Part shown: in pieces, positions 2,585 to 62,642 of the stretch | How the letters are laid out: every line of letters begins with the position of its first letter | Numbering within the stretch: the stretch's first letter is position 1 | Assembly: GCA_958009085.1 (NCBI GenBank) | Contig: OY253679.1 | Location: 434,001-498,000 of the forward strand | DNA from: Protoeuglena noctilucae | Taxonomy: Eukaryota | Length of the DNA stretch: 64,000 nt | Reading direction: 5' to 3' | Notes under the pieces: model-generated | What the model saw: only the letters and a program-made list of their open reading frames with translations | Databases searched by the model: none | What the model was told of the DNA's origin: nothing | Program-made: the position numbers and the translations under genes

Positions 2585-4731
2585 TCATCGCATCTTGTAG
2601 TTCTGCACGTGGGCCACTTGGCTGCGCTTGCCGTCGATGCTGTACTCGATGGTGATGTCCAGATCCCTGCAGCAAAGGCGTCGTGGGTGCGCGATGACCT
2701 AGCCAAGTCACCGCCAGTGTTGCAGCAACACACCGGCAGCCACCGAGCGAGCTTCGGCAACGACAACATGGCTTTCGTGCACGCCCCCTTCGCACGCTCA
2801 ACGGGCCGGCTTTTGAATCCTTGCCTCGGGTTCGTCTTGTTGGGCTTGCAGTGGATGGTCCCCGTGAGCGTCTCGCCCTTGCACACGGCGATGGTCTCAA
2901 GGTAAAAGACCGTCTGCTTCCAGTGCGTCTGCCGGTTGCGAGGCCCCGTCGTGAACTGCAGCGGCTTGTGGCACGCGGAAAACGTGCAGCTGAAGTACCC
3001 GACCTGCGGGCAGGCGCAAGAGACAGGCAGGGTTCCGTGTCGGGGCTCAGCTGGGGAGAGCTCGTTGAAGAGCTACCGCGACGCGTGGATCGCGAAGCGC
3101 TGGTTGTTCGCATGTTAGGCGCCTGATGTGATGGGATGGTGTGGCCTTATTCTCTCACCAGGGCGTGGATGAAGTCATTTCTGGTCGCCGTGAGGGAGAA
3201 GGGCGCGGAGAAGTGCGCGTCCTCCTTCTTCATCACGTTGATGTTGATCATGCACACCTGGCAGTCGTTCGTGCAGATCTGCGAGCGGCAGACGGGCCTC
3301 CACAGTCATGCGTGCCAAGCAATGCGAGCGCAGCGCCCCGCAGCAGGCGCCGCTGACCTGGTCCGGCTGCACGCAGTCGACGAGCGGCTCGAGGAGGGCC
3401 AGCTTGCCGATGCAGCTGAAGTTGAAGCCGTACACATCGTTCCAAAAGTCGATCTTGTCCTGCCTGCGTGACGCGCGCACGCTCGCGAGCCGTCACGTGA
3501 CCACGATCCACTCCGCTGCGCCGAGCGCGCTTGTGTACATGTACCATAGATACATTCCTGCTCAGTAATTGGCCCCTCGCCTATACTCGGCGTCCTCAAT
3601 GGCGCAGAGGTGCACCACGGCCTGGTCGGGGAATATGAGCCCCCCCGGGGCCAGCCACTTGTCCCTCGCCCAGATGACCGTGTCCAGCATCGACTCGTAG
3701 AACAAAAAGTACCCCATCCACTCGGAGACAATGATGTCCACCTTGTCCACCGGCAGCGTCACCTGGGCGGCAAAGCGGCACGCACGCTGGGCATCATGTC
3801 GCCGGGGTTGCGCCCCAAGCAGGGGCGCCGATGATCACCACTCGGTCAGAGACAACGCAACGCACGCCGCTGAGGCGAATGGCGGCCCCAGATGGTGCCC
3901 AGTCCCGCTCCCGCACCCCTCCTCACCTCCTCCACCTTCCCCTTGATGATGGTGATGCGCTGCTCGTAGCCGTTGTCCTTGACGATCTGCACGGCCTGAT
4001 CGGCGATCGCCGAGCACTCGATCCCGTACACGTGCCGCGCGCCGGCCTTGGCGCAGAAGAGCGAGAGGATGCCCGTGCCGCAGCCGACGTCCAGGACGAC
4101 CTTGTCCTTGAAGACGAAGGCGTTCTGCATGATGGCGTTCATGTACGTCCGAGTGCGGACCTGAGGAAGGGGGGCAGGGGGCGGGCGGGCGTCGCGGCGG
4201 CGGGGCCGGGCGCAGGCGAGCGGTAGCAGTCAAGAAGTTGGGACGGCTCGCCTGGTCCTTCAGCATCTCCTCGTGGATTCCGAAGTGCGCATAAGAGTCG
4301 AAGTAGTAGTCCTTCGACGTCTTGTCGGCGTCCCCGTTCGCCTGCACCGGGCGCCGCGCGAGGAGCGTCATGGTCGGGGGCGCCGCGGGGCCCGGGAGCC
4401 GCCAAAAGGTCGAGCGGCAAGAGGCGCGCCCGCTCGCAGCACGCAAACATAGATCGAACGGGCGCGGGCGATGCCAATGCGCGCGAGTCTGTCCAGCGCA
4501 GGCCTCCATGAGAGCCAGCGCAGGCGGCGGGAGGGACGTTGTTTGCGAGACGGTGGTTTGCCGGGGTTCCGTAGGTGCTACGGAGGCGCTTGTCAATGTG
4601 TGCTTACACTGGCCATGCGGGGTCCTGCTAGGCGCAGCAAGGGCGCGCGGCGGGTGAGCCGCCGCTCAGTAAACTGCCGGACTCCTGATCGTCACCTGAG
4701 GGGCACCATTCTCCCTGCTGTCGACCTCCAT
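2585..4731 (-). CDS. PRMT1: Type I protein arginine N-methyltransferase, PRMT1-like, 8 exons
   Basis: Motifs [51 protein letters not shown] and [11 protein letters not shown]-terminus NYKMR* at 2585. The start exon [12 protein letters not shown] at 4731 is inferred from splice phase. Three introns have GC donors. Confidence 0.95.
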
Positions 4732-5209
4732 CGCCTACGTACGTGAATCGATCGTCTCACAGCACTGTTCAGCGAGGGCGAGCACAGGGTTGGGCGGGGG
4801 AGTGGCGCCTGCTTTCCTATTCCACAACTCGAAGTGTCCGGGCAGTGTGAGCAGTTGGGGCTGAGACTGAAGCACATTTGTACGCAGCCACGTTGCGCAG
4901 GCGATGATCTGGGCCCGCAGGTTGCCAACACACTGGCGCCAGTGAAGCGGGCTGGATGATTGTCCAGCAAGCTGGCCCTTGACGCGCAACCCCTGACTTG
5001 CCTTTCGTTCCCTACCAACCAGCTGACTTGGTTCCATCGCGCTGTCTGCTGCGCTCCGGCAAGCAGTGTTTTTTACGGAACGCGCCCCAGCAATCGCACG
5101 CTTCGCTTTCGAGCACCGGTTGTGCCGTGCTTCGCCACATTCTTGCCGTTCTAGGGCAGCGCTACGCTTGTCTCGCCGCCAGCGATATCGGGCAGCGGCA
5201 AGGGGGAAC

Positions 5210-60342: not shown

Positions 60343-60612
60343 TTGAGCCGCCTGTTGTGCGTTGAAGGAACAAACTTACTGGGTTAAGTGGGATGTCCAC
60401 AGTCTACGCTCGCTCAGTCGCTGCGTCGCAACGCAAGAGTGCCAGAGCCTGTTGGGTGGGGTGCTCCAAGCCTTCTACTCTGCCCTCGCGCTCTCTACTC
60501 CGCTCGCTGACGCCGGCAGCGATCGCGTATCGAGTCCCACAGCAGCGGGGCGTGAGGGTTTGTAGAAAGCCTTTGACGGGACCCCCCGAGCTTCCTCGGC
60601 TGACGCCGTGCG

Positions 60613-62642
60613 ATGGACTTCTCGCTATTCGACGATGATGTCGAGCAGGGAAAGCACGTGCCCATGGAATTCTACGGCAACAAGGGCACGTTCAACATGG
60701 AGGCGGTCCTCAAGGTGTTATGCGCCGCGAGCGGCCCGGCGTTCGACCTGCGCCCCCGATGAAGGCGTTGAGCGTCTGTAATGCTGCCATCTGCGCCCTT
60801 GTATGGGCCGTTTGACCTCCCTATCTCCCGCCTTTGGGCACGCGCAGGAGCAAATCACCCAGTTCTCACTCTACTACATGTCGCTGCCGCCCAACCTGCC
60901 CTTTTCGAGGATCATCGATGAGATCTACAACGGCGTCGACCACGTCGAGCCGTGGATGTCCGGGAACGTGCGCGGGGCGTCCACGGCCTTCTGCCTCCTG
61001 CATCGCCTTTTCGAGGCGAGTGGGGCGCCCTGGGCGGCGATGTAGCTTGCGGAGCGCTTTGGCCGTTGAGCTTCCAACGCGTCGTTGCGCAGATGGGCTT
61101 GAACGAGAAGCAGGTGCGGGCCATGCTCGACACGGAGCTCTCGCCCTTCGTCCGGGCCGTCGGATTCCTCTACCTGCGGTTCAGCTTGAACCCGAGGAAC
61201 ATATGGGACTGGATCAAGGGCTACGTCGACGACGAGGTGAGACAGGGTCCCGATGCAGAGGCCAGGCCGCCTTCTTCCGTATCCTGCTGCGACGTACTCA
61301 GGCTCTCACCCCCCTTGCCTGTGCAGGAGGAGTTCGAGCCTTCTCCGTTCGGTGGCAAGGTCACCATGGGCGCGTATGTTAGGGACGTTTTCCTCGACAT
61401 GTACTACTTCGAGACCATTCTGCCACGCGTCCCGCAGCACATCGTGGTGCGTGGCTCGGCGGGGCCCCCTGCCATGGCACTCGCGCACCCGCCACGGCCC
61501 TGTGTGATACCTGACAGCGTCGCCGTGTTCGCAGAAGCAAATCAAAGACGAGCTGACGAAGCTGGGCCTCCCCTCCGAGCCCAAGGTGCGTTGGGCCTTC
61601 GGGGGGGAAACACAGAGACAATGCAGACTGCTGCATATTCTCCAATGGCTGGGTCACTCCCTGGACTGTCTTGCAGGGCAACGCCGGCACGGGCGGGCGG
61701 ACGCGCCGGGAGGACAACGCGGGGGCGGGGCGTCCCCAGTCGGTCAAGTCGGCCATGTCGATGAAGGTGGGGGGCATCAGCATGACGCGGAAGCACGCTA
61801 GGCGGGACGAGGGCGACCGCGATCGGGGCGGTGACAAGGACCGGGAGCGGGACGGGAACAAGGGGCGGGACCGGGACACCATGCCCCCCCCAGGTGAGCG
61901 GACTCGAGTCGAGAGCGTGACTTCATGTCATGATCATAGCAAGTTTCATGCCCGACCCTCGCCTTGCTGCGTCGCAGCGGACCGCCCGCGCCGTTCGGAT
62001 GCCGGGTGGGAGCGGGAGCGGGATCGGGATCGGGCGGGTCCAGGGGCGCGCGATCGCAGCCGCAGCCGGGAGCGCGACTGGGGACGGGACGGGGGAAGGG
62101 AGGGACGGGGTCCCGGCGACGGCCACGACCGCGAGAGAGGCGGGGCGTGGGGCAGGGGTGGGGGCGGGGAGGGTGACCGGGCGAGGGCGGGGAGGGGCGG
62201 GGGACCCAGGGACGGCCGCGACCGTGGCGACTGGCGGGGCGGGGGCCCGGGGCGGGACAGGGAGAGGGAGCGGGGGAGGGAGCGGGATGAAGACCGGGGC
62301 GGGCGGAGTGCGGCAGACGCATTCCGCGCGGCGCCACACAGCAAGGCAAGCGATCGGGCGCGCGTAGCCGCTACCTGTCGTGCGGCATCGTATCCGTGGG
62401 ATAGAGACGGTGGGATGGGACCCCTTCGTGGAGGACGCTGGTCCCACCCGCTGACTCCCGCTGACCTCCTCCCCTTGCAGTTCCGGGAGTCCGCCCCCGG
62501 GAGTCTCGGGAACCGGACGCTCAGCGACACGTACGGGGACGCGTCGGGCAAGGTCGCCCTGGGGGTCGTCCGGGGGCGGGACGCCACGGCGGGGTCGGTG
62601 GAGGCGTACCGCCTCGGGATGAAGAACCCGTACAAGCACTGA
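60613..62642 (+). CDS. PRPF38B: Pre-mRNA splicing factor 38B-like with Arg/Asp/Gly-rich C-terminus
   Basis: GNKGTFNME, IDEIYNGVDHVEPW, STAFCLL, SPFVRAVGFLYLR and YFETILPRVP, followed by RD/RE/RS repeats. Confidence 0.9.

What the first reader, a model, noticed from the sequence alone, without database searches (positions are those of the whole stretch)
2667..62480. Exceptionally frequent GC-AG introns with a strict AG|GC(G/A)AG donor
Seen: GC donors are needed to keep proteins in frame at minus-strand 2824, 3580, 4251 (PRMT1), 8762 (PSB33) and 27299 (F-box). On the plus strand they occur at 15740 (RNR2), 21688, 22056, 24772, 25721 (MAPKKK), 31331, 31497, 38927, 39680, 40364, 49682, 51510, 52197 (last three CPSF100), 59051 (LPA1), 61016 and 62346 (PRP38B). 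That is 21 of roughly 125 introns by manual estimate, about one in six. Several split invariant motifs such as GAFGQ|VFLG and KDQ|VRT. All are preceded by exonic AG and continue GCGAG or GCAAG, whereas GT donors here are more variable. Knowledge: GC-AG introns are about 1% in most studied eukaryotes. Inference: relaxed +2 recognition compensated by U1 pairing at -2/-1 and +4/+5, possibly driven by GC bias. GT-only gene predictors will mis-annotate this genome.
Basis: partly seen in the sequence, partly recalled or inferred. Interest (0 to 1): 0.72.

Follow-up and report, generated by a model that had tools for sequence, protein, structure and literature searches.

The report
Many GC-AG introns, GC-rich green alga
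About one intron in six in this stretch of a GC-rich marine green alga starts with GC instead of GT, which looks real but repeats a pattern already published for other GC-rich algae.

Summary
All 21 sites read AG|GC(G/A)AG. A self-trained gene parser places 16 of them as donors using signals learnt from GT donors only, and all 21 after retraining. Decoy donors (GG, GA) gave 0 consensus sites.

Homologous proteins or Pfam profile order place eight GC donors exactly: 2824, 3580, 4251, 15740, 22056, 49682, 52197 and 61016. Three more (24772, 27299, 38927) have weaker support from an ortholog or a motif. Four are weak: 21688, 31331, 31497 and 62346.

The share is 16 of 108 to 21 of 110 introns, or 15-19%.

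The phenomenon is in print for GC-rich algae: Emiliania huxleyi 56%, Aureococcus 39.6%, Micromonas pusilla 22.2% and Chlorella 7.7%. Those papers also give the G+C explanation, and one warns about GT-biased gene predictors.

The window comes from an unidentified core chlorophyte. Its best named hit is Pedinophyceae sp. YPF-701.

Verdict: real U2-type GC-AG introns, a new member of a known kind, of modest interest.

The parts
2667..2824 (-). GC-AG intron, 158 nt, PRMT1-like gene
   Evidence: Best of 78 stop-free GT/GC x AG pairs against 25 PRMT1 homologs. The homolog residue is continuous across the junction. Retention shifts the frame.
3464..3580 (-). GC-AG intron, 117 nt, PRMT1-like gene
   Evidence: Best of 39 pairs against 25 homologs: 8047 against 7551 for the GT donor 6 nt upstream. 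Retention meets a stop at codon 6.
4161..4251 (-). GC-AG intron, 91 nt, PRMT1-like gene; splits KDQ|VRT
   Evidence: Best of 21 pairs. No in-frame GT donor within 60 nt. Motif checked.
8641..8762 (-). GC-AG intron, 122 nt, gene with a Rieske-like domain (reader: PSB33)
   Evidence: Chosen in both parses. Retention shifts the frame, and the only in-frame GT alternative scores -7.1. No homolog test was possible.
15740..15965 (+). GC-AG intron, 226 nt, ribonucleotide reductase small subunit
   Evidence: The upstream exon ends at Pfam Ribonuc_red_sm profile position 110-111 and the downstream exon starts at 112.
21688..21859 (+). Candidate GC-AG intron, 172 nt, 5' part of the MAPKKK gene (weak)
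   Evidence: Chosen only in the retrained parse. Upstream codon score is only 0.9. No homology.
22056..22209 (+). GC-AG intron, 154 nt, MAPKKK gene; splits the glycine loop
   Evidence: Best of 82 pairs against 39 homologs: 8063 against 7625 for the GT donor 9 nt downstream. The ortholog P0002 runs straight across the junction.
24772..24918 (+). GC-AG intron, 147 nt, MAPKKK gene
   Evidence: Donor chosen in both parses; the first parse paired it with acceptor 25447, the retrained parse and the ortholog with 24918. Best pair against the closest ortholog, by a small margin of 106 to 97. The intron is in frame and open.
25721..25822 (+). GC-AG intron, 102 nt, MAPKKK gene
   Evidence: Chosen in both parses. 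Retention meets a stop at codon 2. No homology.
27107..27299 (-). GC-AG intron, 193 nt, leucine-rich-repeat gene (reader: F-box)
   Evidence: Chosen in both parses. No in-frame GT donor within 60 nt. The spliced product completes a fifth copy of a C-x2-L-x2-L-x-L-x2-C repeat pattern across the junction.
31331..31418 (+). Candidate GC-AG intron, 88 nt, gene of unknown function (weak)
   Evidence: Chosen only in the retrained parse. Gene score is low at 33.9. Upstream codon score is -1.6.
31497..31691 (+). Candidate GC-AG intron, 195 nt, same unknown gene (weak)
   Evidence: Chosen only in the retrained parse. An in-frame GT donor 36 nt downstream scores 1.9.
38927..39018 (+). GC-AG intron, 92 nt, small C2H2 zinc-finger gene (38831-39116)
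   Evidence: Donor chosen in both parses. The first parse gives the 92-nt intron. Only the spliced product matches the C2H2 finger pattern; read-through does not, and it stops at codon 47. The retrained parse paired this donor with 39428 instead, which I judge wrong.
39680..39772 (+). GC-AG intron, 93 nt, kinase gene
   Evidence: Chosen in both parses. Best pair against 30 kinases, but the margin is trivial (5073 to 5053). The intron is in frame and open.
40364..40441 (+). GC-AG intron, 78 nt, kinase gene
   Evidence: Chosen in both parses. Retention meets a stop at codon 12. No homology.
49682..49801 (+). GC-AG intron, 120 nt, CPSF100-like gene
   Evidence: Best of 14 pairs against 20 CPSF100 homologs: 3820 against 3684, and 3577 for the best GT donor. 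Retention meets a stop at codon 8.
51510..51593 (+). GC-AG intron, 84 nt, CPSF100-like gene
   Evidence: Chosen in both parses. Retention meets a stop at codon 18. The homolog scan was undecided because the region is unconserved.
52197..52355 (+). GC-AG intron, 159 nt, CPSF100-like gene
   Evidence: Best of 40 pairs against 20 homologs: 1383 against 1245. The next exon matches CPSF100_C profile positions 110-138.
59051..59135 (+). GC-AG intron, 85 nt, gene of unknown family (reader: LPA1)
   Evidence: Chosen in both parses. Retention shifts the frame. No Pfam or PDB match to test it with.
61016..61092 (+). GC-AG intron, 77 nt, PRP38-family gene
   Evidence: The upstream exon ends at Pfam PRP38 profile position 72. 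The downstream exon's second residue sits at position 74.
62346..62480 (+). Candidate GC-AG intron, 135 nt, Arg/Asp-rich tail of the PRP38-family gene (weak)
   Evidence: Chosen only in the retrained parse. Upstream codon score is -2.5. The intron is in frame and open.

Best explanation
These are ordinary U2-type spliceosomal introns whose donor is GC instead of GT. They make up roughly 15-19% of introns in this 65-71% G+C, intron-rich nuclear DNA of a marine core chlorophyte.

Inferred mechanism: U1 snRNA still pairs with the donor. The C at +2 gives one mismatch, which is tolerated only where every other key position pairs (A-2, G-1, R+3, A+4, G+5). That is why GC donors are uniformly AG|GCRAG while GT donors vary.

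Inferred origin: G+C-biased mutation or biased gene conversion converts T to C at +2, and the change survives in donors strong enough to bear it.

Shown here:
- where the sites lie
- that frame and homology need them
- the difference in consensus between GC and GT donors

Inferred, not shown:
- actual splicing at these sites
- U1 pairing
- the evolutionary direction of the change
For: - Sequence: the motif is present at 21 of 21 sites.
- First parse: with signal matrices learnt from GT donors only, allowing GC adds 19 donors, 16 of them claimed sites, and gains 140 nats.
- Retrained parse: 27-28 GC donors including 21 of 21 claimed, gaining 278 nats over GT-only.
- Decoys: GG gave 7-9 picks and GA 8-12, with 0 consensus sites among them, and they gained only 16-88 nats.
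- Homology scans with no signal model put the GC donor first at 2824, 3580, 4251, 22056 and 24772, and 49682 and 52197.
- Pfam profile positions run on across 15740 (111|112) and 61016 (72|73-74).
- A C2H2 finger pattern and a leucine-rich-repeat pattern are completed only across 38927 and 27299.
- Retention breaks the frame or meets a stop at 18 of 21 sites. No in-frame GT alternative within 60 nt reaches the median score of the GT donors in use.
- Consensus: strict AG|GYRAG in 21 of 21 GC donors against 20 of 89 GT donors, p = 1.4e-11. Among homology-placed donors it is 8 of 8 against 2 of 13, p = 2.2e-4.
- All 21 acceptors are CAG behind a pyrimidine-rich tract like that of GT introns (0.72 against 0.70), and intron lengths do not differ.
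- Precedent: high GC-AG shares in GC-rich algae, with a canonical U1 5' end (passages read).
Against: - No RNA evidence.
- Four sites (21688, 31331, 31497, 62346) rest only on a parse whose matrices had already seen GC donors. Their upstream coding signal is near zero or negative.
- At 51510 homology could not decide, and at 39680 the margin was trivial.
- Three introns (24772, 39680, 62346) are in frame and open, so retention cannot be excluded from sequence alone.
'Strict' may therefore be partly an effect of how sites were found. Only the 8-against-13 homology-placed comparison escapes this.
- One 64-kb window says nothing certain about the whole genome.
- U1, U6, U1-C and PRP8 could not be examined. 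No genome is held and no snRNA lies in the window.
Confidence: 0.85

Rival explanations
1. The spliceosome of this lineage has itself changed (U1 5' end, U6 ACAGA box, U1-C, PRP8 or RNA modification), so that C at +2 is read nearly as well as U. Abundance of GC donors then reflects altered machinery, not only mutation pressure on tolerant sites.
For: - Among strict-consensus donors, 21 of 41 carry C at +2.
- This does not differ significantly from the intronic C/(C+T) ratio of 0.62 (binomial p = 0.20), as if +2 were nearly neutral in that context.
- Iwata & Gotoh suggested protein components or base modification for Aureococcus and M. pusilla, because their U1 5' ends are canonical (passage read).
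Against: - GC donors are seen only with a full consensus at the other positions. That is what an unchanged U1 with one tolerated mismatch predicts.
- The 69 GT donors that lack the strict consensus have no convincing GC counterparts.
- No component of the machinery could be inspected.
Confidence: 0.1
2. The gene models are wrong. The real donors are nearby GT sites, the segments are retained coding sequence, and the GC pattern is an artefact of fitting introns to a common motif in GC-rich DNA.
For: - AGGC[GA]AG is common: 46 copies, 25 of them not donors.
- Three claimed introns are open in frame.
- Four sites lack independent support.
- No RNA was seen.
Against: - Eight junctions are fixed by homologs or Pfam order, where GT alternatives score lower.
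- Decoy dinucleotides gave 0 consensus donors.
- In-frame GT alternatives score at most 2.0, against a median of 3.6 for GT donors in use.
- The upstream codon score is positive and the downstream score negative at 19 of 21 sites.
Confidence: 0.05
3. The GC-donor introns are copies of a mobile intron family (introner-like elements) that carries its own GC donor.
For: - From my own recall, not from any call: the two species with the highest GC-AG shares in Iwata & Gotoh are also known for introner bursts.
Against: - All-against-all BLASTN of the 117 predicted introns found no similar pair. The only hit was one trivial overlap between opposite-strand predictions.
- Lengths of GC and GT introns do not differ.
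Confidence: 0.03

Closest known systems
Abundant GC-AG introns of GC-rich algae (Iwata & Gotoh 2011, BMC Genomics 12:45, PMC3033335; passages read)
   Same: - High genomic G+C. The paper gives 65.9-69.5% for its top species, and the window is 65-71%.
- A GC-AG share far above the 1.3% average. The paper gives 39.6% for Aureococcus anophagefferens, 22.2% for Micromonas pusilla and 7.7% for Chlorella sp.
- No difference in length between GC-AG and GT-AG introns.
- The share is linked to G+C content.
   Different: - A different organism. The window's best named hit is Pedinophyceae sp. YPF-701, at 86% over one exon.
- This DNA is much richer in introns than I recall for Micromonas: about 5-6 introns per gene.
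- I did not read the paper's per-species supplement.
GC donors of Emiliania huxleyi (Feldmesser et al. 2014, BMC Genomics 15:148, PMC4028052; passages read)
   Same: - A 65% G+C genome.
- GC donors are needed to map transcripts.
- Acceptors stay AG.
- GT-biased ab initio predictors mis-annotate genes.
- The G+C explanation is offered.
   Different: - A haptophyte, with a majority of GC donors (56% of 241 curated junctions) and RT-PCR proof for 9 of them.
- Here the share is 15-19% and there is no RNA proof.
Compensated GC 5' splice sites of animals and plants
   Same: - GC donors match the U1-complementary consensus at the other positions better than GT donors do.
- Here that is 6.0 against 4.76 matches out of 7.
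   Different: - In those genomes GC donors are about 1% of introns.
- My sources here are thin. I saw only the search listing and abstract start of Kralovicova et al. 2011 (PMC3167603). Earlier surveys are recalled and were not read.

Membership tests
U2-type GC-AG introns | Intron begins with GC and ends with AG | tested here: met
   21 of 21 donors are GC. 21 of 21 paired acceptors are CAG.
U2-type GC-AG introns | Removing exactly this segment restores the reading frame and the alignment to homologs | tested here: met
   Met at 8 sites by homolog scan or Pfam order. Weaker support at 3 sites. Frame or stop argument holds at 18 of 21. Undecided at 51510 and 39680.
U2-type GC-AG introns | U2-type donor consensus (AG|GYRAGT), not the U12-type donor box | tested here: met
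   Position frequencies: A-2, G-1, A+4 and G+5 are all 100%. None of the 21 donors continues in the way I recall for the U12 box.
U2-type GC-AG introns | The junction is seen in RNA | not testable with these tools
Metatranscriptome runs hold 0.23-0.35 of the words of 21501-31500, and 0.47 of the 31-mers there are wholly exonic. That is compatible with splicing but proves nothing about junctions.
U2-type GC-AG introns | Stronger match to the consensus than GT donors of the same genome | tested here: met
   Strict consensus in 21 of 21 GC donors against 20 of 89 GT donors. Among homology-placed donors it is 8 of 8 against 2 of 13.
GC-rich algal genomes with abundant GC-AG introns | Genomic G+C of about 64% or more | tested here: met
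   65-71% in every 4-kb bin of the window. The whole genome is not held.
GC-rich algal genomes with abundant GC-AG introns | GC-AG share several-fold above 1-2% genome-wide | tested here: inconclusive
   In the window the share is 16 of 108 to 21 of 110. Genome-wide it cannot be tested.
Introner-like mobile introns | Introns form families of similar sequence | tested here: not met
   0 real similar pairs among 117 predicted introns. This covers the window only.

The most novel reading that the evidence does not exclude
In this chlorophyte lineage, the +2 base of a donor that pairs fully with U1 elsewhere is effectively free to be U or C. 21 of 41 strict-consensus donors carry C, against 62% expected from intron composition. 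Donors with any other mismatch must keep U. If this holds genome-wide and in RNA, the organism would be a natural titration of the strength threshold for 5' splice sites. It might also carry an adapted U1 snRNP or U6/PRP8 that reads C at +2 better than model spliceosomes do.
Probability: 0.15. Interest if true: 0.55.

Novelty: new member of a known kind. Interest (0 to 1): 0.3.

Why it matters
- Annotation: a GT-only or GT-biased gene finder would break about one intron in six here, and so would damage most multi-exon genes. In the PRMT1-like gene, 3 of 6 introns use GC donors. The same warning is already in print for E. huxleyi.
- Biology: this adds a core chlorophyte, probably near the pedinophytes, to the short list of GC-rich algae with abundant GC-AG introns.
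- Question it bears on: whether G+C pressure alone explains such introns, or whether the machinery has changed. Iwata & Gotoh called this an enigma.
- Limit: it does not open a new kind of system.

Tried and rejected
No junction evidence resulted, so the word shares are not evidence for splicing.
- Whole genome: not held. No genome-wide census and no snRNA search were possible.
- Rfam scan of the window: 0 matches.
- The search for homologous proteins with a 200-aa CPSF100 exon, 'longer' mode: nothing found. Low-complexity words probably crowded out relatives.
- The same tool with the kinase exon 39774-40361 found only bacterial-type kinases at 29-45% identity and no orthologs. The test of 39680 therefore stayed marginal, and 40364 could not be tested.
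- The protein-atlas search gave no useful taxon.
- The JGI metagenome scan for PRMT1 found no close relative; the best was 74% identity. Polarising GT-to-GC changes in relatives was therefore impossible.
- PDB searches for the two exons around 59051: no usable match.
- Pfam at E up to 1 for 23 exons next to GC donors added only RNR2 and CPSF100_C.
- The search of earlier findings: no notes on this genome; the rest were unrelated Ostreococcus and other notes.
- Literature. Searches for GC-AG with Pedinophyceae and for YPF-701 found nothing on nuclear splice sites of pedinophytes. The library lacks most subscription journals, so a genome paper that reports this could exist.
- Rejected the U12-type reading, because the donor consensus is U2-type.
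- Rejected the introner reading within the window.
- Rejected the retrained parse's 502-nt intron at 38927 in favour of the 92-nt one.

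
Full report
**What the window is**

The 64 kb are 65-71% G+C throughout. About half is coding. My parses give roughly 20 genes on both strands and 108-117 short introns, with a median length of about 130 nt.

Pfam matches per exon name several genes:
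- a PRMT1-like methyltransferase
- ribonucleotide reductase small subunit
- two protein kinases
- a CPSF100-like protein
- a PRP38-family protein
- a choline-transporter-like protein
- DUF1350 and others

A kinase exon finds green-algal MAPKKKs. The best named hit is Pedinophyceae sp. YPF-701 at 86% identity, followed by Tetraselmis (83%) and Coccomyxa (80%). No protein identical to the window's was returned. The organism is therefore an unidentified core chlorophyte whose proteome is probably not in that collection. Marine metatranscriptomes hold part of the sequence.

**Checking the observation**

All 21 sites read AG|GCGAG (15 sites) or AG|GCAAG (6 sites). The motif is common in this DNA, with 46 copies, so the real question is whether these copies sit at exon ends.

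I wrote a two-strand exon/intron parser:
- Codon usage was self-trained from the G+C periodicity of the window.
- Donor and acceptor matrices were trained on GT-AG parses only.

First parse:
- Allowing GC at a penalty of 2.4 nats gave 92 GT and 19 GC donors.
- The score was 2351.9, against 2212.4 for the GT-only parse with 108 introns.
- 16 of the 21 claimed sites were chosen.
- 3 other GC picks (9796, 29753, 48140) lack the consensus and look like noise.

Retrained parse, started from the GT-only parse:
- Codon and signal tables were retrained.
- All 21 of 21 claimed sites were chosen, with 6-7 non-consensus extras.
- Scores were 2940.7 with GC allowed, 2663.1 for GT-only, 2750.8 with GG allowed and 2701.4 with GA allowed.

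Decoys:
- GG and GA were picked 7-12 times. None of those picks had the AG|GNRAG consensus.
- 24 AGGG[GA]AG sites exist in the window.
- Background noise of the parser is thus about 4-12 non-consensus picks, while the 21 consensus GC donors have no decoy counterpart.

**Independent placement by homology**

For each junction I scored every stop-free pair of a GT or GC donor with an AG acceptor, within 45-60 nt of the model. The score was the summed BLOSUM62 local alignment to homologs. No splice-signal model was involved.

- **PRMT1.** I used 25 of 41 full-length ORFs taken from metagenome contigs. All six introns came out as in the parse, with GC best at 4251, 3580 and 2824.
- **MAPKKK.** With 39 of 120 hits, GC 22056 came first (8063), ahead of the GT donor 9 nt downstream (7625). 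The two neighbouring GT introns were confirmed. The closest ortholog reads straight across the junction. It also weakly supports 24772 paired with acceptor 24918 (106 against 97).
- **CPSF100.** With 20 of 27 full-length representatives, GC came first at 49682 and 52197. Five GT introns were confirmed. 51510 and three GT junctions in unconserved regions stayed undecided.
- **Pfam order.** Profile positions run 111|112 across 15740-15965 and 72|73-74 across 61016-61092.
- **Motifs.** The spliced product at 38927-39018 matches a C2H2 finger pattern that read-through does not. The product at 27299 completes a fifth copy of a leucine-rich-repeat pattern.
- **Marginal.** 39680 is first only by a trivial margin.

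**Frame arguments**

- Retention shifts the frame or meets a stop at 18 of 21 sites. 24772, 39680 and 62346 are open in frame.
- In-frame GT donors within 60 nt score at most 2.0 on the donor matrix. GT donors in use have a median of 3.6 and a 10th percentile of 0.8. Only three alternatives exceed that percentile: at 24772, at 31497, and at 61016, where Pfam order excludes it.
- The codon score is positive upstream and negative downstream at 19 of 21 sites. It is near zero or negative upstream at 21688, 31331 and 62346, and low at 22056, 25721 and 31497.

**Grading of the 21 sites**

| Grade | Sites | Count |
|---|---|---|
| Strongly placed by homology or Pfam | 2824, 3580, 4251, 15740, 22056, 49682, 52197, 61016 | 8 |
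| Ortholog or motif support | 24772, 27299, 38927 | 3 |
| Chosen in both parses only | 8762, 25721, 39680, 40364, 51510, 59051 | 6 |
| Weak | 21688, 31331, 31497, 62346 | 4 |

The share is 16 of 108 (first parse without its 3 dubious GC picks) to 21 of 110 (retrained parse without its 7 extras).

**Properties of the GC donors**

- GC donors have A-2, G-1, A+4 and G+5 at 100%. GT donors have 63%, 94%, 71% and 74% at those positions.
- A at +3 is seen in 29% of GC donors against 4% of GT donors.
- Strict AG|GYRAG holds for 21 of 21 GC donors against 20 of 89 GT donors (p = 1.4e-11).
I therefore repeated the test on donors placed by homology or Pfam alone: 8 of 8 against 2 of 13, p = 2.2e-4. One of those GT junctions, 61237, is only loosely fixed by Pfam.
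- Acceptors (all CAG), pyrimidine tracts and intron lengths do not differ between the two classes.
- The introns form no sequence families.
- Among strict-consensus donors, C at +2 is as common as T (21 of 41). This is not significantly below the intronic C/(C+T) ratio of 0.62.

**Mechanism**

The best reading is the standard one for GC-AG introns. They are U2-type, U1 pairs with one mismatch at +2, and full pairing elsewhere offsets it. Strong G+C pressure makes them frequent, by converting T to C wherever the donor can bear it. This part is inference: no RNA, no snRNA and no relatives' DNA could be examined.

**Comparison with the literature**

- Iwata & Gotoh 2011 (passages read) report an average of 1.3% GC-AG. 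They give 39.6% for Aureococcus, 22.2% for Micromonas pusilla and 7.7% for Chlorella sp. They tie this to G+C content, find canonical U1 5' ends, and call the origin an enigma.
- Feldmesser et al. 2014 (passages read) found 56% GC-AG among 241 curated E. huxleyi junctions. Nine were verified by RT-PCR. They blame GT-biased predictors for wrong gene models.
- Frey & Pucker 2020 (passages read) report a correlation between genomic G+C and splice-site G+C.
- I found nothing on nuclear splice sites of pedinophytes. The library is incomplete, and I read no supplements.

**Verdict**

This is a further GC-rich alga with abundant, strictly compensated GC-AG introns. RNA junction evidence is still missing.

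Noticed in passing
window 38831-39116 (+) and 39435 onward (+): Parsers tend to fuse these into one gene, but they look like two. The first is a small two-exon C2H2 zinc-finger gene that ends at a stop near 39116. The second is a separate kinase gene that starts at an ATG near 39435 with its own glycine loop.
   Followed up: partly
window 39435-43403 (+): A large protein with a kinase domain followed by right-handed beta-helix repeats (Pfam Beta_helix). The best matches to its kinase domain are bacterial-type Ser/Thr kinases at 29-45% identity. No eukaryotic ortholog was returned.
   Followed up: no
window 30315-31793 (+): A low-scoring predicted gene with an internal tandem duplication of a Ser/Arg/Ala-rich stretch of about 40 residues. 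It has no Pfam match and overlaps an alternative minus-strand exon call. Whether it is a gene at all is unclear.
   Followed up: no
window 49136-49318 (+): A 56-residue protein fragment, 98% identical to this CPSF100 exon, exists in the public representative library (P0121). The same species or a very near relative has therefore been sampled elsewhere.
   Followed up: no
window 24919-25231 (+): An exon of the MAPKKK gene was missed by the first parse. It was recovered through a short C-terminal motif shared only with the Pedinophyceae sp. YPF-701 ortholog.
   Followed up: partly
window 52727-57944 (-): The parser joins a DUF1350 gene and a choline-transporter-like gene into one model across introns of about 600-850 nt. 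These are probably two genes.
   Followed up: no
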